This document shows, one piece after another, positions 1-4,677 of a DNA stretch of 4,677 nt. Each line of letters starts with the position of its first letter. Positions within the stretch are counted from its first letter, which is position 1. The position numbers and the translations under genes are program-made. Source of the DNA: a virus (Duplodnaviria; Heunggongvirae; Uroviricota; Caudoviricetes); IMG/VR virus record IMGVR_UViG_2648501186_000009; one strand, written 5' to 3'. The notes beneath the pieces are model-generated. The model was not told the DNA's origin and did no database searches. It saw nothing but the letters and a program-made list of their open reading frames with translations.

Positions 1-112
1 AACTGAAGTTGCCCTGAAAATGAAATTTTTTTGCACAACCGCAGAACTTTTCCGCAGGGCATCAGTCTTAATTAGTGCCACTGCTTTTCTTTGATGTCCC
101 CATTTTGTGGAG

Positions 113-155
113 CCCATCAACCCCGCCATTTCGGTTCAAGGTTGATGGGTTTTTT
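113..155 (+). terminator. Candidate rho-independent terminator in flanking (presumed host) DNA
   Basis: Perfect 10-bp inverted repeat cccatcaacc (113-122) / ggttgatggg (140-149) followed directly by TTTTTT (150-155). The loop is long (17 nt) but contains an internal ccg/cgg pair. No T-run in the minus-strand orientation, so it would terminate a plus-strand transcript arriving from upstream of the window. Confidence 0.4.
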
Positions 156-213
156 GTTGTCTGAAATTTATGCTGTTTAAAATCATGATGTTAGAAGCAC
201 TGTTTTTTAACGA

Positions 214-544: not shown

Positions 545-1645
545 TCATTCCATTTCGAAATCATCAATCCTCACTTCAAGCTCCAGACTGGTCGTAAAAC
601 CGTTATCCGGGCTGACGGTATGCGTCAGAGTCGTAATGCTCCATTCCGCATCATCTATCGGCTGTTTAAAGCCACTGACTTTCACTGGCATTTCCGTGTA
701 GAGATCTGCCCGCCCTTCCGCCAGTTGTAGCGAGAATGACGCAACGCCGCGTTGCAGGCGTTCCCACTGCATTTTCGCTGCCCGTTCGGCGTTACTCCGA
801 TTAGCATAGGTGCGATTAAGTACCAGCACGTTTTCATCCGTCCCCACCAGGTAATCGCCCTGCTTCGCTTCCGGCTCTTTCTTCTGCTTCTTAGTCCTGC
901 GCTTACGCTTCACCGTAGTGCTTTCTTTCTTCGCGGGTTCGCGGGTATGCAACCAGCTGGCAATTACGCCCGTGTAAGCTCCGCGATCTGCCAGGGTAAA
1001 GCGGTGACTGTCGCCGTCCTTACGTGTGATAGTGATCACCGGCAGTGGTTTACCGCTGGCGCTTTTACCCTGACCCTGCCGGATGAATAACAGATTGCCA
1101 TTTTTCACCGATGCAATAGCACCGTACTGGCGCGCCAGCCGCATCAGAAAACTGCCGTCACTCTCATTAGTCTGGTCTATATGCTCCACGGGCTTATCCG
1201 ACAGGTCTTTACCCAGTGCCATCTTCAGCTTGTGCCGCGCGGCTATTTCCTTCACCACTTCCCCAACTGTGGTCTTGTGCCACGATTTTTCACGGCGGGT
1301 ATTCAGGGTTTCCCGAAAATCAGCACTTCGCGCCCGGATAGTCAGGCGGTCCGGTGCGCCAGTGTGTTCAATCTCGTCCACCGTGAATGCCCCTTTCGGG
1401 AAAAGCGGCTGCCCCTTCCAGCCCAGCGCCAGCGTAATGACCGCACCACGGCGCGGCAGCACGATTTTTCCGTCAGCGTCGTCCAGCTCCAGATCAAGCT
1501 GGTCCGCTTCAAAGCCCCGGTTATCCGTCAGCGTAAGCCCCATCAGGCGGTTGTCCAGCACAGTGGTTATATCCCTGCCTTCAATACTGATGCTGAATGC
1601 CGGAGTTTTGTTGCCTTTGTTAAGCAGTTCAGAGCTGAAATTCAC
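545..1645 (-). CDS. D: Phage tail protein D (P2 gpD / late control gene D family), apparently full length
   Basis: 366-aa ORF with segments characteristic of gpD as I recall it (TPAFS, LTLTDNRGFEADQLD, LPRRGAV, FTVDE..H.GAPD, IRARSADFR, HIDQ..ESD, ADRGAYTGV, a lysine/arginine-rich linker KRKRRTKKQKKEP, RGVA.FS..LA.GRAD.Y.E.PVKVSGFK, GFTTSLELEV). GTG start at 1645-1643 overlapping the upstream TGA stop (GTGA coupling), with GGGAGGG Shine-Dalgarno 8 nt upstream. Confidence 0.9.
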   Translation of the reverse strand: MNFSSELLNKGNKTPAFSISIEGRDITTVLDNRLMGLTLTDNRGFEADQLDLELDDADGKIVLPRRGAVITLALGWKGQPLFPKGAFTVDEIEHTGAPDRLTIRARSADFRETLNTRREKSWHKTTVGEVVKEIAARHKLKMALGKDLSDKPVEHIDQTNESDGSFLMRLARQYGAIASVKNGNLLFIRQGQGKSASGKPLPVITITRKDGDSHRFTLADRGAYTGVIASWLHTREPAKKESTTVKRKRRTKKQKKEPEAKQGDYLVGTDENVLVLNRTYANRSNAERAAKMQWERLQRGVASFSLQLAEGRADLYTEMPVKVSGFKQPIDDAEWSITTLTHTVSPDNGFTTSLELEVRIDDFEME

Positions 1646-2280
1646 GACAGCAGCCCTCCCACCGTTTTACTGATATCGCTTAAGGCAGACGTTGCCGTGT
1701 CCTGCAGATTATTCAGTTGAGTACTGAGATCACCGAACATATCGGACAGGGATTCATCCACCCGTTTTAGCGACAGGGTGAACTCAATCCTGCGCGGCAT
1801 ACCGTCGCGGAAAAACTCCGTTTTAGTCTGATTCAGTCCCTCAATCACATACATGCCGTAAATCGTGCCGCTACCTTCAATCAGGGGCCATGCTTTCCCC
1901 TGTTCTGCCATCTGCTCCAGTGCCAGCAACGACAGCCTGCCACCTGTTACCGCACCTGCAGCAACACGCCCGATCTCTGCGGTTGCACTCATGACGTAAT
2001 GTGGCAGTTTCTCTTTTGCCACCTCATTAATCGGTACACATGGCAGACAATGAATCTGTGCCAGAAAACCATCTACCAGCGTTGAATCTTCAGTCAGATC
2101 GGTAAGCAGCCAGATTTCTGGTGCGGTTAATAGATGAGGCTGAGCTGGGTTCAGCTTGTTCCGCAGAATCTGCGCATTCATGCCTGCACGTTCTGCCAGT
2201 TGCACCAGATTGTGGCGCAGTGCAAATGCACGACAGGCTTCATCAAAATGTGGATGTTTGGAAACTTGGTAATCAAACAT
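1642..2280 (-). CDS. Chimeric ORF: N-terminal ~110 aa of a phage 186 CII-type regulator fused in frame to the C-terminal ~100 aa of tail protein U (gpU); likely the prophage deletion junction
   Basis: N-terminal part [24 protein letters not shown]...LNPAQPH...[28 protein letters not shown] closely resembles the 186 CII sequence as I recall it. C-terminal part [31 protein letters not shown]...FF.DG.PR.I.FTLSL.RVDESL resembles P2 gpU. It sits directly upstream of D and is translationally coupled to it, as U is in P2. The switch in similarity occurs around residues 110-116 (nt ~1945-1955). Probable start is the ATG at 2280-2278 with an AGAGG Shine-Dalgarno; the ORF track's 2286 start is a TTG. 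Confidence 0.65.
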
Positions 2281-2312
2281 GGTCAATGCCTCTGATGTAT
2301 TTCAGAATCGAA

Positions 2313-2534
2313 CTAATTAAGGTTTAGATTGCATTCTGAAAGCGCATCAACGGTCATGGCTGCTATGTTGATCATCACTTTTTCGCGTTTTTTATCTTTG
2401 CGCAAACGGTGACGGATAAGGCGTCCGTCAGCCAACATGTCATTGATGGTATCGATGGACAGCCCTGTCAGCTCGCTATAGCGCTCAATAGTCACATGAG
2501 GCGTGGTAAGAGTGATTGAAATGTTAGGTCTCAT
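2313..2534 (-). CDS. apl: Apl/Cox-like small DNA-binding regulator (putative excisionase / switch regulator)
   Basis: 73-aa ORF in the first position of the operon divergent from cI and directly upstream of the CII-like gene, i.e. the position of apl in phage 186. Contains a helix-turn-helix-like stretch ([23 protein letters not shown]). ATG at 2534-2532 with GAGGAA Shine-Dalgarno 9 nt upstream. Family assignment rests on position, size and the HTH, not on recalled sequence identity. Confidence 0.55.
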
Positions 2535-2659: not shown

Positions 2660-3229
2660 ATGAATTTGGAGAAAGGCGGACGAGGCGCTATAGAGCGCAT
2701 GGTAGAAGCTTATGGATTCAAAACTCGACAGGCGTTGTGCGATCATTTAGGAATCTCTAAAAGTACACTCGCCACACGCTACATGCGTGACTCATTCCCA
2801 GCAGAATGGGTAATCCAGTGCGCCCTTGAAACGGGCACCTCGCTTAATTGGCTCACAACCGGACATGGTTCAAAGCAAACTTCAGGTAATACAAATACTA
2901 TGGAAGTTGCTAAATATGTATTATCTGATGGTGCCTTGCGTGAAGACGGTTTTTATATTTTTGATAAGGGATTTCTACCCTCTACGTTTAAAAAACCTTT
3001 TGTCATCACAGATAACAATTCTGAATTTATTTGTGATAAAGAATTTGATGATATACGTGATGGTAAATGGGTAATAAGTATTGATGGCGAAGTAACGATC
3101 CGTGACATTACTCGTTTACCCGGTGGAAGAATCTTCGTCGAGGGTGGAAACAGAGCCTTCGAATGTAAGATAGAAGACATTGAAATAATTGGTAAAATTA
3201 TAAGTTTAACAGTCAAGTATGTTAAATAG
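2660..3229 (+). CDS. cI: Phage 186 CI-type immunity repressor
   Basis: 189 aa from the ATG at 2660 (the ORF track begins at an in-frame GTG at 2654). N-terminal region AYGF...L..H.GIS.S.L..RY.R...P.....QCALETG..L.WL.TG.G and C-terminal region (ITRLPGGRIFVEGGNRAFEC.I.DIE) both resemble the 186 CI repressor as I recall it; size also matches (~190 aa). Divergent from the apl-like gene, as in the 186 switch. GGAG 5 nt upstream of the ATG. Confidence 0.85.
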   Translation: MNLEKGGRGAIERMVEAYGFKTRQALCDHLGISKSTLATRYMRDSFPAEWVIQCALETGTSLNWLTTGHGSKQTSGNTNTMEVAKYVLSDGALREDGFYIFDKGFLPSTFKKPFVITDNNSEFICDKEFDDIRDGKWVISIDGEVTIRDITRLPGGRIFVEGGNRAFECKIEDIEIIGKIISLTVKYVK

Positions 3230-3244
3230 TACCGGGAGGAAACT

Positions 3245-3436
3245 ATGCTTGGTAAGGTATTTTTTGTGGTTTTGTCATGTTCTTTGTTATTAAACCCACT
3301 AACTACCTATGCTAGAAATTATCCCTGCTCAGGGAAAAAGGGAGGTGTTTCTCACTGTACCTCAGATGGCAAATTCGTTTGCAATGATGGAACTATTAGT
3401 AAATCCAAAAAAATCTGTACTAAAAACTCACGATAA
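3245..3436 (+). CDS. Small hypothetical protein (63 aa) with N-terminal signal peptide / hydrophobic segment and 4 cysteines; putative prophage moron
   Basis: ATG at 3245 preceded by GGGAGGA (3234-3240), starting 16 nt after the cI stop. N-terminus [23 protein letters not shown] is signal-peptide-like (possible signal peptidase I site after TYA, or a weak lipobox VLSC). The remainder is lysine-rich with Cys at 28, 38, 46 and 58. AT-rich relative to the D/U genes. No family recognised. Confidence 0.5.
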
Positions 3437-3571
3437 CTTTTGCTTTTATATCTGCGTCTAAAATAAAAATGAGCCGCAGGTTAACCGCAAAAGTTACATG
3501 CTCACATAGCAAAAAGAATAGCCAACTTCATTATGGCTTCAGTGAGATGTATGGTCGTAGGATTTCATACA

Positions 3572-3599
3572 TTGACACTGGTTATACATACAGTAAAAA
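3572..3599 (+). promoter_or_regulatory. Candidate strong sigma70 promoter immediately upstream of int (TTGACA-N16-TAAAAT)
   Basis: Consensus -35 TTGACA at 3572-3577, 16-nt spacer, -10 TAAAAT at 3594-3599. Followed by GGAGGG (3611-3616) and the int ATG at 3625. Confidence 0.5.
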
Positions 3600-3624
3600 T
3601 GCTCTCTACTGGAGGGCATTTTTT

Positions 3625-4677
3625 ATGGCAGTACGAAAACTCACCACAGGGAAATGGCTTTGCGAATGTTACCCCGCCGGACGAAGTGGGCGTCGTGTGC
3701 GTAAACAATTCGCCACCAAAGGCGAAGCTCTGGCTTTTGAGCGTCACACTATGGAAGAAACCGAATCAAAGCCATGGCTGGGCGAATCAGTGGATCGTCG
3801 AACCCTGAAAGACGTGGTTGAGCTATGGTTCAAACTACATGGTAAATCTCTGACTGCTGGGCAGCATGTCTATGACAAATTGCTGCTGATGGTTGGCGCT
3901 CTGGGCAATCCTCTTGCAACCGATCTCACCTCTAAAATGTTTGCCCACTATCGAGATAAACGCCTGACAGGCGAGATCTACTTCAGCGAGAAATGGAAGA
4001 AAGGAGCAAGCCCGGTCACCATTAACCTGGAGCAAAGCTATCTAAGTAGTGTTTTTAGCGAACTATCCCGTCTGGGCGAATGGTCGTATCCGAACCCACT
4101 GGAGAACATGCGAAAATTCACCATCGCAGAAAAAGAGATGGCATGGCTTACCCATGAGCAGATTGTTGAATTACTGGCTGATTGCAAACGTCAGGACCCA
4201 ATTCTAGCACTGGTAGTTAAGATATGCTTAAGCACAGGCGCACGCTGGCGAGAAGCCGTAAATCTTACTCGTTCACAGGTGACCAAATACCGAATTACCT
4301 TTGTAAGAACGAAGGGGAAGAAAAACAGAAGTATCCCTATCAGTAAAGAGCTTTACGAAGAGATCATGGCGCTTGATGGGTTCAATTTCTTCACAGACTG
4401 CTATTTTCAATTTTTATCCGTGATGGAAAAAACGTCTATCGTGCTCCCTCGCGGTCAACTCACACACGTTCTGCGCCATACGTTTGCGGCGCACTTCATG
4501 ATGTCGGGTGGAAACATTCTGGCCTTACAAAAAATTCTCGGACACCACGATATAAAAATGACTATGCGTTACGCACATCTGGCACCGGATCATCTGGAAA
4601 CGGCGCTCCGTTTCAATCCTCTGGCAACGCTGCCAAGTGGCGACAAAGTGGCGGCAGCGGTTGGCATTACCCCGTAA
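3625..4677 (+). CDS. int: Tyrosine site-specific integrase, P2/186 integrase family
   Basis: 350 aa from the ATG at 3625 (GGAGGG Shine-Dalgarno 8 nt upstream). MAVRKLTTGKW...YPAGRSGRRVRKQFATKGEALAFE has the same N-terminal architecture as P2 Int as I recall it. Catalytic-domain motifs are present: LSTGARWREA (Arg), LPRGQLTHVLRHTFAAHF (His-x-x-Arg), GHHDIKMTMRYAHL (Tyr nucleophile). The 52 codons upstream in the ORF track (3469-3624) have no integrase similarity and contain the candidate promoter. The 3' end overlaps the att core copy at 4638-4659; the stop is the last three bases of the window. Confidence 0.9.
   Translation: MAVRKLTTGKWLCECYPAGRSGRRVRKQFATKGEALAFERHTMEETESKPWLGESVDRRTLKDVVELWFKLHGKSLTAGQHVYDKLLLMVGALGNPLATDLTSKMFAHYRDKRLTGEIYFSEKWKKGASPVTINLEQSYLSSVFSELSRLGEWSYPNPLENMRKFTIAEKEMAWLTHEQIVELLADCKRQDPILALVVKICLSTGARWREAVNLTRSQVTKYRITFVRTKGKKNRSIPISKELYEEIMALDGFNFFTDCYFQFLSVMEKTSIVLPRGQLTHVLRHTFAAHFMMSGGNILALQKILGHHDIKMTMRYAHLAPDHLETALRFNPLATLPSGDKVAAAVGITP
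4638..4659. repeat. Direct repeat copy 2 (tggcgacaaagtggcggcagcg); putative att core at the int-proximal prophage junction (attL-like)
   Basis: 21/22 identity to 214-235 in direct orientation. Lies within the last 40 nt of the int coding sequence. Confidence 0.7.

What the first reader, a model, noticed from the sequence alone, without database searches (positions are those of the whole stretch)
3245..3436. Uncharacterised small secreted cysteine-rich peptide in the cI-int moron position
A 63-aa ORF with a good ribosome-binding site sits 16 nt downstream of cI, so it is probably co-transcribed with the repressor in the lysogenic state. It has an N-terminal hydrophobic signal-like segment and a ~40-residue lysine-rich tail with four spaced cysteines (C-x9-C-x7-C-x11-C), which looks like a small disulfide-stabilised exported peptide. 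Genes inserted between repressor and integrase in temperate phages are frequently lysogenic-conversion or superinfection-exclusion factors. I do not recognise this protein, and it is AT-rich compared with the structural genes.
Basis: partly seen in the sequence, partly recalled or inferred. Interest (0 to 1): 0.6.

Follow-up and report, generated by a model that had tools for sequence, protein, structure and literature searches.

The report
Prophage copy of YdcA periplasmic mini-protein
The 63-codon ORF is a real, strongly conserved gene in the repressor-integrase operon of a common E. coli prophage; it encodes a tiny exported, disulfide-stapled protein of the already catalogued YdcA family, whose function is unknown and which seems distantly related to a part of the Legionella type IV secretion machine.

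Summary
The ORF (3245-3436, +) is as described: ATG start, GGGAGG ribosome-binding site, 15 nt after the cI stop, hydrophobic N-terminus and C-x9-C-x7-C-x11-C. It is not unrecognised. It is RefSeq WP_000900883.1, "YdcA family protein" (NCBIfam NF007463 above its cut-off, Pfam PF27300, PHROG 6000), 57% identical to chromosomal YdcA of K-12, whose function is unknown.

It is conserved as a protein. The mature core has pN 0.08-0.22 against saturated synonymous sites, while the signal peptide drifts freely but keeps a hydrophobic core and an A-x-A cleavage site.

The window is a decayed 186-like prophage at rybB/rcdA. The same cI-ORF-int module is in about 11% of complete E. coli genomes, including BL21(DE3). 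Phages 186 and P2 have nothing in this slot. HP1 has other genes there, and HP2 has an unannotated homolog overlapping the cI stop. So it is cargo in the lysogenic operon.

The profile and the predicted fold both point to the lobes of Legionella Dis2, an outer-membrane-proximal T4SS component. This is probable, not proven.

Best reading: a periplasmic, two-disulfide, cationic mini-protein made in lysogens that acts at the inner face of the outer membrane. Its phenotype is unknown. The family is already catalogued, so interest is modest.

The parts
2660..3229 (+). cI repressor (186 type). The PGAP start is 2660; the longest ORF starts at GTG 2654.
   Evidence: Pfam Phage_CI_repr 2.8e-33 plus Phage_CI_C 5.4e-29; RefSeq WP_001047327.1.
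3234..3239 (+). Shine-Dalgarno GGGAGG for the 63-aa ORF, 5 nt before the ATG.
   Evidence: Sequence. CCGGGAGGAAA[CT]T is kept in 85 of 87 lineage copies.
3245..3436 (+). YdcA-family gene (63 codons plus stop TAA) = WP_000900883.1.
   Evidence: NCBIfam NF007463 115.8 bits (cut-off 93); PHROG 6000 at 1.9e-34; PF27300 on homologs; annotated 'YdcA family protein'.
3245..3313 (+). Predicted Sec signal peptide, residues 1-23 (MLGK / [12 protein letters not shown] / NPLTTYA), cleaved at TYA|RN.
   Evidence: Rule-based: best 9-aa Kyte-Doolittle window 2.72, small residues at -3 and -1. In 73 of 76 family members (3 residues: 29; 4 residues: 44) the rule-based site lies 3-4 residues before the first core Cys. 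pN is about equal to pS here. No dedicated predictor was available.
3314..3433 (+). Mature 40-aa peptide with the four-Cys core [34 protein letters not shown].
   Evidence: Invariant or near-invariant columns; pN 0.08-0.22 against pS 0.7-1.0; AF2 pLDDT 84-91 over residues 31-60.
3437..3624 (+). AT-rich non-coding spacer between the ORF and int. It is absent from phage 186, where cI and int overlap by 1 nt.
3595..3623 (+). Strong hairpin of the form A5-stem-loop-stem-U6, ending 1 nt before the int ATG, with the int SD GGAGGG in its 3' arm. It is terminator-like and/or sequesters the int RBS.
   Evidence: dG -17.5 kcal/mol, z -5.75, 0 of 200 shuffles as stable. Pairing is kept in all sequence variants. 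Yersinia prophages have an analogous hairpin of different sequence.
3625..4677 (+). Integrase (350 aa, WP_000290953.1).
   Evidence: Pfam Int_N plus Phage_integrase; PGAP coordinates.
2313..2534 (-). Apl/Cox-like excisionase-repressor, divergent from cI. The 2535-2653 interval corresponds to the pR/pL switch region of 186.
   Evidence: PHROG 575 at 6.1e-31; 186 annotation for comparison.

Best explanation
The ORF is a functional gene for a YdcA-family mini-protein, carried as accessory cargo inside the lysogenic (cI-int) operon of a lineage of 186-like prophages that integrate at the 3' end of rybB. Shown: family membership, protein-level purifying selection, and the accessory status of the slot. 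Inferred step 1: it is transcribed with cI from the lysogenic promoter(s), so it is made in lysogens and even in decayed remnants such as this one and the one in BL21. The hairpin just before int limits read-through or int translation, which leaves cI plus this gene as the expressed unit. Inferred step 2: the 23-residue signal peptide sends it through Sec and is cut at TYA|RN. The 40-residue, strongly basic product (about 4.3 kDa, pI 9.7) folds in the periplasm with two disulfides. Inferred step 3, the weakest: by analogy with the homologous lobes of Legionella Dis2, which dock on the outer-membrane lipoproteins DotC, DotD and DotK at the outer-membrane-facing side of the T4SS cap, it binds a conserved outer-membrane-proximal envelope component. 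It then supplements or modifies the function of the host's own YdcA, giving the lysogen an envelope-related trait. Stress or organic-acid tolerance is the only phenotype reported for the family. The exact phenotype is unknown.
For: Family: NF007463 115.8 bits, above the cut-off of 93; PHROG 6000; PF27300; 57% identity to K-12 YdcA. Selection: mature core pN 0.08-0.22 with pS 0.7-1.0 against orthologs in the same slot in Yersinia, Buttiauxella and Haemophilus, and signal peptide pN about equal to pS. All 87 lineage copies are intact, with 15 synonymous and 2 non-synonymous changes, both outside the core. Export: the hydrophobic core and A-x-A site are conserved across 76 members while the sequence drifts. 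Operon: 15-nt gap, strong SD, no + strand promoter-like or terminator-like site between cI and the ORF. In HP2 the homolog overlaps the cI stop as TAATG. The 186 annotation shows cI-int as one pL/pE operon. Hairpin before int. Accessory slot: empty in 186 and P2, other genes in HP1. CI repressor and integrase are the commonest neighbours of the family across species (7/74 and 6/73). Prevalence: 590 of 5,426 complete E. coli genomes, at least 535 viral contigs, BL21(DE3). Dis2 link: Foldseek top hit with probability 0.97; hhalign 87.5% for the mature domain and 95.6% for full length; Dis2-like proteins hit only the two YdcA models among 18,950 NCBIfam models; PF27300 is precomputed on six of the 120 listed Dis2 homologs; bridging tandem-domain members. 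Dis2 biology: PMC8486379 and PMC12716638. YdcA phenotype: PMC7642389.
Confidence: 0.6

Rival explanations
1. Superinfection-exclusion or anti-phage factor. The periplasmic peptide made in lysogens would block DNA entry or the tail-associated enzymes of incoming phages, or block conjugative or T4SS traffic. This is functionally like T4 Spackle or the Cor and Llp receptor blockers (a comparison from general knowledge).
For: It is expressed from the immunity operon position. It recurs as cargo in unrelated phages (Moraxella Mcat, Acinetobacter Vieuvirus, Pseudomonas Y12, HP2) and on 4-5 kb plasmids. It is predicted to be periplasmic.
Against: There is no match to PADLOC defence models. The mature domain is about 75% identical per column across alpha-, beta- and gammaproteobacteria with dN well below dS, which is the opposite of the diversifying pattern usual for phage-host conflict proteins. 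Most family members are chromosomal in ordinary contexts.
Confidence: 0.2
2. Selectively neutral passenger. The ORF would be a captured host ydcA paralog that persists only because it lies between two maintained genes (cI and int), with little or no expression or effect.
For: No function is known for the family. No cultured enterobacterial phage carries it. The prophage here is decayed.
Against: There is strong purifying selection on the mature domain across prophages whose cI is only 32-37% identical. All 87 copies are intact and the SD is conserved. A neutral 190-bp ORF would accumulate frameshifts, as the neighbouring cII and gpU genes have.
Confidence: 0.08
3. Lipoprotein. Cys12 in the context L-S-C would be a lipobox, so the protein would be lipidated and membrane-anchored rather than soluble.
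For: V-L-S-C at residues 9-12 fits a relaxed lipobox pattern. One UniRef member of the family is labelled 'Lipoprotein' (P0047).
Against: Only 7 residues separate K4 from C12, which is too short for a typical lipoprotein signal peptide. In close homologs the residue before this Cys is F, I or V (LLFC, LLIC, ILVC), or the Cys is absent altogether. The conserved feature is the A-x-A site 3-4 residues before the core.
Confidence: 0.04
4. Secreted cationic antimicrobial or bacteriocin-like peptide, or a metal-binding Cys4/His peptide.
For: It is small, cationic and has four Cys, which is defensin-like in composition. His37 is present in at least 90% of the close homologs. One paper found a YdcA-family gene among loci associated with antimicrobial activity in Pseudomonas protegens.
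Against: It has a Sec signal rather than a double-glycine leader, and there is no adjacent immunity or exporter gene. In the wider family His37 is replaced by A, S, R, G, Y or T. The equivalent cysteines in Dis2 form disulfides seen in cryo-EM density. The P. protegens association is correlative only.
Confidence: 0.05

Closest known systems
YdcA of E. coli K-12 (b1419, NP_415936.1; NCBIfam NF007462/NF007463 = PRK10040; Pfam PF27300)
   Same: Same family and architecture: a signal peptide followed by a single core of about 35 aa with four Cys. Identity is 57% overall and about 78% in the core. Both are predicted periplasmic and of unknown function.
   Different: YdcA is a chromosomal gene next to rydC/cybB, whereas this copy lies in a prophage lysogenic operon. 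The two belong to different NCBIfam equivalog models: the window protein scores 68.5 bits against the K-12 model, whose cut-off is 118, and 115.8 against NF007463. Lysogens therefore carry two diverged paralogs.
Dis2 (Lpg0823) of the Legionella pneumophila Dot/Icm T4SS outer-membrane cap (PDB 7MUC/7MUD)
   Same: Each Dis2 lobe shows the motif CxxxMGG[VI]xxC...G.xVCN[ND]G..S..C with cysteines at matching positions. It is secreted and disulfide-stapled. It is the top and only meaningful fold hit.
   Different: Dis2 has two fused lobes with five disulfides and is part of a T4SS complex. The window protein has a single lobe with four Cys and no T4SS genes nearby. Sequence evidence alone is marginal. 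The authors describe Dis2 as Legionella-specific, so this link is not in the papers I read, although Pfam's PF27300 hits on some Dis2 homologs imply it.
Unannotated 60-aa ORF of Haemophilus phages HP2 and S2 (NC_003315 complement 2487-2669 region)
   Same: It is in the same slot, directly after cI on the same strand and upstream of int, and in the same family with a 73.5% identical core.
   Different: It overlaps the cI stop (TAATG) and is followed by a second secreted cargo gene, orf1(S). The cI there is only 32% identical. The gene is not annotated in the phage records.
Classical P2-group accessory ('moron') genes such as old, tin and Z/fun, and small periplasmic or outer-membrane exclusion proteins such as T4 Sp, phi80 Cor and T5 Llp (comparison from general knowledge, not tested here)
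   Same: It is a non-essential cargo gene, present or absent among otherwise syntenic phages, AT-rich, and expected to be expressed from the prophage.
   Different: There is no sequence or fold similarity to any of them. It has no promoter of its own and is embedded in the repressor operon. Its family is mainly chromosomal and highly conserved.

Membership tests
YdcA family (NCBIfam NF007463 / PRK10040.1-2; Pfam PF27300; PHROG 6000) | Score above the curated family cut-off | tested here: met
   NF007463 scores 115.8 bits against a cut-off of 93, covering residues 5-63. PHROG 6000 scores 1.9e-34. PF27300 is absent from the local Pfam copy but is precomputed on 58 of the 64 homologs returned, including the 98%-identical cluster representative.
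YdcA family | Four invariant cysteines and the motif PCSG.KGG[VI]..C...F.C.[DN]G..S.S...C | tested here: met
   C28, C38, C46 and C58, together with P27, S29, G33, G34, F44, G49, S52 and S54, are invariant or nearly so in 43- and 40-sequence alignments.
YdcA family | N-terminal Sec (SPase I) signal peptide and periplasmic location | tested here: inconclusive
   Rule-based features are met in the window protein and in 72 of 76 members. No SignalP-type predictor was available and there are no experimental data.
Dis2 (Lpg0823) lobe fold | Significant sequence or profile similarity to the Dis2 family | tested here: inconclusive
   For: hhalign 87.5% (P 3.6e-6) for the mature domain and 95.6% for full length; reciprocal NCBIfam hits at E about 2e-4; a bridging tandem-domain member with E 3e-5 for an internal domain. 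Against: the mature-only HMM against the PDB gives E 0.46.
Dis2 (Lpg0823) lobe fold | Structural similarity | tested here: inconclusive
   [not shown]
Dis2 (Lpg0823) | Two lobes with five disulfides, as a component of a Dot/Icm T4SS | tested here: not met
   The window protein has a single lobe and four core Cys. There are no T4SS genes in the window or its flanks. It is therefore not a Dis2 ortholog, and at most shares a domain.
Phage accessory gene ('moron') or lysogenic-conversion gene | Present or absent among otherwise syntenic relatives | tested here: met
   In 186, cI and int overlap by 1 nt. P2 has a 115-bp gap with no gene. HP1 carries orf1-4, and HP2 carries a YdcA-like gene plus orf1(S).
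Phage accessory gene ('moron') | Own promoter and terminator (autonomous transcription unit) | tested here: not met
   There is no + strand promoter-like site upstream of the ORF and no terminator-like site between cI and the ORF. It appears to be embedded in the cI operon, and a hairpin lies 158 nt downstream.
Phage accessory gene / lysogenic conversion | Expressed in the lysogen and changes the host phenotype | not testable with these tools
   This needs RNA-seq, Ribo-seq, proteomics and genetics. BL21(DE3) carries the module.
Known anti-phage defence or superinfection-exclusion proteins | Homology to a catalogued defence or exclusion protein | tested here: not met
   PADLOC gives 0 families for the window protein, the HP2 homolog, YdcA and Dis2. 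There is no BFVD fold match.
Bacterial lipoproteins | Conserved lipobox with Cys at a suitable distance from the N-terminus | tested here: not met
   C12 lies only 8 residues after K4. The -1 residue is F, I or V in close homologs, and the Cys is absent in most of the family.

The most novel reading that the evidence does not exclude
The YdcA/Dis2-lobe mini-domain is a widespread module of about 35 residues and two disulfides that docks on conserved outer-membrane lipoprotein or OmpA-like partners. Under this reading, phages, small plasmids and the Legionella T4SS have each recruited it. The prophage copy, expressed from the immunity operon, would remodel or occupy such a site and so exclude incoming phage or conjugative DNA, or harden the envelope. 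That would be a new class of soluble periplasmic lysogenic-conversion factor, and the first functional handle on both YdcA and Dis2.
Probability: 0.15. Interest if true: 0.65.

Novelty: already known. Interest (0 to 1): 0.3.

Why it matters
The gene and its family are already catalogued, so there is no new kind of element here. What this work adds is context.

- A function-unknown, extremely conserved periplasmic mini-protein is made from the repressor operon of a prophage lineage present in about one in nine E. coli genomes. That lineage includes the workhorse strain BL21(DE3).
- The same slot carries the same family in Yersinia, Buttiauxella and Haemophilus (HP2/S2) peduoviruses. In HP2 and S2 the gene is not even annotated.
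- The domain probably equals one lobe of Legionella Dis2, which had been regarded as genus-specific and without structural relatives.

Together these make YdcA, the prophage copy and Dis2 mutually informative, and they give cheap experiments in standard strains. If a phenotype emerges, it would define a new lysogenic-conversion function.

Tried and rejected
- **Local Pfam copy:** no family for the ORF. The only hit is a spurious GULLO2-like one at E 0.075 or 0.021, because PF27300 is newer than the local copy.
- **Recalled resemblance to DUF3761 or YHYH-type small Cys proteins:** no Pfam support at E up to 10, so I dropped it.
- **First PDB profile hit to Dis2 (E 2.8e-4):** partly driven by signal-peptide alignment. 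Repeating it with the mature domain only gave E 0.46, level with chance hits such as hepsin, VLDLR and lysozyme. The link therefore had to be re-established by profile-profile, reciprocal and bridging comparisons.
- **Weak PDB hits to Pin-II or potato-type proteinase inhibitors (E 0.16-7.6):** treated as Cys-composition noise.
- **PADLOC:** nothing.
- **Conserved partner gene downstream, like HP2 orf1(S):** only scattered weak similarities, so there is no cassette.
- **Rfam:** nothing in or near the ORF. The only hit is RybB at 80-158.
- **'Conjugal transfer protein' label on UniRef entries for this exact protein:** no tra or T4SS genes at any examined locus, so I treat it as an unsupported automatic name.
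- **'ydcA' in Neisseria GGI and F-like plasmid papers:** an unrelated naming scheme, judged from general knowledge and not followed up.
- **Lipoprotein reading of Cys12:** rejected on conservation grounds.

Full report
**1. What is there**

The window is 100% identical to E. coli ETEC1706 chromosome NZ_CP122904.1, positions 3183862-3188538. RefSeq annotation and my own family scans agree on the layout. On the minus strand lie ogr (236-487), gpD (545-1645), a cII'-'gpU junction left by a large internal deletion (1642-2286), and an Apl/Cox-like gene (2313-2534). On the plus strand lie a 186-type cI (2660-3229), the 63-aa ORF (3245-3436) and an integrase (3625-4677). The whole element sits between ybjL and rcdA, so it is a decayed 186-like prophage.

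- an ATG start at 3245;
- GGGAGG 5 nt upstream of it;
- a 15-nt gap after the cI stop codon;
- a hydrophobic N-terminus;
- cysteines at residues 28, 38, 46 and 58, plus a fifth at residue 12 inside the hydrophobic segment.

Its GC content is 35.4%, but the C-terminal half of cI (33.2%) and the downstream spacer (36.7%) are equally AT-rich.

**2. It is a known family**

The protein passes the curated cut-off of NCBIfam NF007463 (PRK10040.1-2), scoring 115.8 bits against 93. It also matches the K-12 YdcA model NF007462 below that model's cut-off. It matches PHROG 6000, annotated 'unknown function', at 1.9e-34. Its homologs carry the precomputed Pfam domain PF27300, which is missing from the local Pfam copy.

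The exact sequence is RefSeq WP_000900883.1. Older PGAP runs call it 'hypothetical protein' and newer ones call it 'YdcA family protein'. It is 57% identical to K-12 YdcA (b1419), and about 78% identical over the Cys core.

The literature says little about YdcA:
- It is a 57-aa predicted periplasmic protein of unknown function (bioRxiv 10.1101/2024.02.12.579971).
- Its deletion sensitises E. coli W to 300 mM 3-hydroxypropionate, and it is said to be acid-induced via YdcI (PMC7642389).
- A 2026 paper still calls the family 'poorly characterized' (PMC13541209).

An exhaustive profile search finds only 451 clusters at 50% identity among 1.84 billion representatives. These are spread over alpha-, beta- and gammaproteobacteria.

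**3. It is a real, selected gene for an exported protein**

I compared the window ORF with orthologs in the same cI-int slot in Yersinia, Buttiauxella and Pasteurellaceae prophages. In the mature domain pN is 0.08-0.22 while synonymous sites are saturated (pS 0.7-1.0). In the N-terminal 24 codons pN is about equal to pS.

Within the E. coli lineage all 87 copies are intact. There are nine DNA variants but only three protein variants: 15 synonymous and 2 non-synonymous changes (T20A and R24K), both outside the core. The caveat is that 80 of these copies were selected as the best protein matches.

Across 76 family members, 72 have a strongly hydrophobic 9-residue window. The -1 residue of the rule-based site is always A, G or S, and in 73 members that site falls 3-4 residues before the first core Cys. 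For the window protein this predicts cleavage at TYA|RN and a 40-residue mature peptide of about 4.3 kDa, pI 9.7 and net charge about +7.

Cys12 is not a credible lipobox. It lies too close to the N-terminus and is not conserved as such.

AlphaFold2 with the family alignment gives pLDDT 84-91 over residues 31-60, with two short strands.

**4. Position and operon context**

In phage 186, cI and int overlap by one base and form the pL/pE lysogenic operon. In P2, C and int are separated by 115 non-coding bp. The ORF plus its 188-bp spacer is therefore an insertion relative to both prototypes. In the Haemophilus peduoviruses the same interval is variable:
- HP1 carries orf1 to orf4.
- HP2 and S2 carry an unannotated 60-aa YdcA-family ORF whose ATG overlaps the cI stop (TAATG), followed by orf1(S) and int.

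Among species-representative genomes, the arrangement cI, then YdcA-like gene, then int recurs in Escherichia, Buttiauxella, three Yersinia species and two Pasteurellaceae. The repressors there are only 32-37% identical to the window's. Phage_CI_repr is the commonest upstream neighbour of the family (7/74) and Phage_integrase the commonest downstream neighbour (6/73). All other contexts are heterogeneous chromosomal genes.

The family also occurs elsewhere on mobile elements:
- in the structural modules of Moraxella Mcat phages;
- in Acinetobacter Vieuvirus phages and in Pseudomonas phage Y12;
- on 4-5 kb Moraxellaceae plasmids.

I found no conserved partner gene.

In E. coli, 590 of 5,426 complete genomes carry the ORF plus spacer, and 648 carry this cI type. 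All six copies I inspected lie at the rcdA/rybB site: the window, BL21(DE3) and four further genomes. Those four have an intact early region next to the module (cII, fil, dam and the end of a replication endonuclease gene). At least 535 viral contigs encode a relative. No cultured enterobacterial phage in the phage collection has the gene.

The simple scan finds no plus-strand promoter-like or terminator-like site between cI and the ORF, so co-transcription with cI is the parsimonious inference. Downstream, at 3595-3623, there is a strong hairpin: A5-stem-loop-stem-U6, dG -17.5 kcal/mol, z -5.75. It ends one base before the int ATG and holds the int Shine-Dalgarno in its 3' arm. Pairing is preserved in every sequence variant, and Yersinia prophages have an analogous hairpin of different sequence. 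It would terminate or attenuate transcription, or occlude the int ribosome-binding site. Either effect leaves cI plus the YdcA-like gene as the promoter-proximal expressed unit in lysogens.

**5. A structural relative: Dis2**

Evidence for a relationship:
- Foldseek with the AF2 model independently ranks Dis2 first (probability 0.97, 39% identity over 38 columns, E 0.087), with nothing else close.
- A Dis2 family profile built from Legionella homologs aligns to the mature YdcA profile at 87.5% probability (P 3.6e-6), and to the full-length profile at 95.6%.
- N-terminally truncated Dis2-like proteins, which lack a signal peptide, hit only the two YdcA models among 18,950 NCBIfam models, at E about 2e-4.
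- Six of the 120 listed Dis2 homologs carry precomputed PF27300.
- Bona fide YdcA-family proteins with two or three tandem domains exist. An internal domain of one of them is 50% identical to Dis2 lobe 1, with pairwise E 3e-5.

Evidence against:
- With the signal peptide removed, the sequence-only hit falls to E 0.46.
- The hhalign values are single-comparison statistics.

I rate homology of the YdcA domain to a Dis2 lobe at about 0.8. The window protein is certainly not a Dis2 ortholog, because it has a single lobe and no T4SS context.

Dis2 buries surface on the outer-membrane lipoproteins DotC, DotD and DotK on the outer-membrane-facing side of the cap. Its deletion removes only its own density and causes subtle translocation defects. 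Its authors regard it as Legionella-specific (PMC12716638). In L. pneumophila the gene lies among envelope genes rather than in a dot/icm locus.

**6. Mechanism and rivals**

The best-supported chain runs as follows. The gene is transcribed with cI in lysogens. The product is exported by Sec and cleaved after A23. It is oxidised to a two-disulfide, cationic mini-domain. That domain acts at the inner face of the outer membrane on a conserved envelope partner, supplementing or modifying the host's own YdcA.

Family membership, selection and slot status are shown. Expression, export and disulfides are inferred. The target and the phenotype are unknown.

The very high cross-class conservation, together with ordinary chromosomal copies, argues for a conserved host target rather than a phage target. 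I therefore rank an envelope-physiology role above classical superinfection exclusion (0.2). Exclusion has no support from PADLOC but cannot be excluded. The neutral-passenger, lipoprotein, antimicrobial-peptide and metal-binding readings are each unlikely, for the reasons listed under the rival explanations.

**7. Verdict**

The entity is already catalogued, so novelty is low and interest modest (0.3). Three pieces of context are useful: the recurrent occupation of this slot across Peduoviridae, including unannotated genes in HP2 and S2; its presence in BL21(DE3); and the probable YdcA-Dis2 domain relationship.

Noticed in passing
window 80-158 (+); window 145-171 and L001 12752-12778: A full-length RybB sRNA (RF00110, 105 bits, E 9e-22) sits at the left prophage junction. 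A 27-nt direct repeat (89% identical) overlaps its 3' end and recurs about 75-100 nt beyond the window's right end, after int. The prophage att site is therefore the rybB 3' end. This fits the P2-like elements 'Rybb*W/B/Cr' listed at the rybB ncRNA in the E. coli W genome paper (PMC3032704).
   Followed up: partly
window 3595-3623 (+): A strong, conserved hairpin (dG -17.5 kcal/mol, z -5.75) has the form A5-stem-U6 and lies immediately before the int ATG, with the int Shine-Dalgarno inside the stem. Yersinia prophages have an analogous hairpin of different sequence. It is probably a terminator or attenuator, or a translational occluder, controlling int. The simple terminator scan missed it.
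   Followed up: partly
window 1642-2286 (-): An open 214-aa reading frame fuses the N-terminus of CII (Phage_CP76, residues 12-128) to the C-terminus of tail protein gpU (residues 112-178). It marks one deletion that removed the replication genes and most late genes. PGAP calls two pseudogenes here.
   Followed up: partly
[not shown]
   Followed up: yes
window 3469-4677 (+): The longest int ORF (402 aa, from 3469) over-extends the gene. Homology starts at M53, and PGAP starts int at 3625 (350 aa).
   Followed up: yes
window 3225-3197 (-): A near-consensus sigma-70-like site (TTAACA-17-TATAAT, 11/12) points antisense into the 3' end of cI. Promoter-like sites are not enriched over shuffles in this AT-rich region (3 found against 4.3 expected), so it may be chance.
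   Followed up: no
protein cluster of WP_000900883.1: UniRef entries for this exact protein, including one from Salmonella Typhi, are named 'Conjugal transfer protein', although no transfer genes lie near any examined copy. This is probably a propagated mis-annotation.
   Followed up: partly
P0201-P0205; P0056-P0062, L044, L048, L053 and others: Some family members have 2-3 tandem YdcA domains. Others, in Herbaspirillum, Comamonas and Stenotrophomonas, carry a second, different Cys-rich C-terminal module (C.C......C.G.RGG.[YF]C.....G..S[YF]), which corresponds to NCBIfam NF007464.
   Followed up: partly
L167 (pGFJ6, 4,066 bp) and L168 (pA40P1, 5,371 bp): Very small mobilisable Moraxellaceae plasmids carry a YdcA-family gene among only 5-6 genes. 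This suggests the gene is useful as stand-alone cargo.
   Followed up: partly
L174 5001-5375: Legionella pneumophila dis2 lies between a rhomboid protease/M23 peptidase pair and Wzy_C/glycosyltransferase genes, not in a dot/icm locus.
   Followed up: no
L001 6316-8000 (just left of the window): ybjL (aspartate:alanine antiporter), adjacent to the prophage junction, is annotated as frameshifted in this strain.
   Followed up: no
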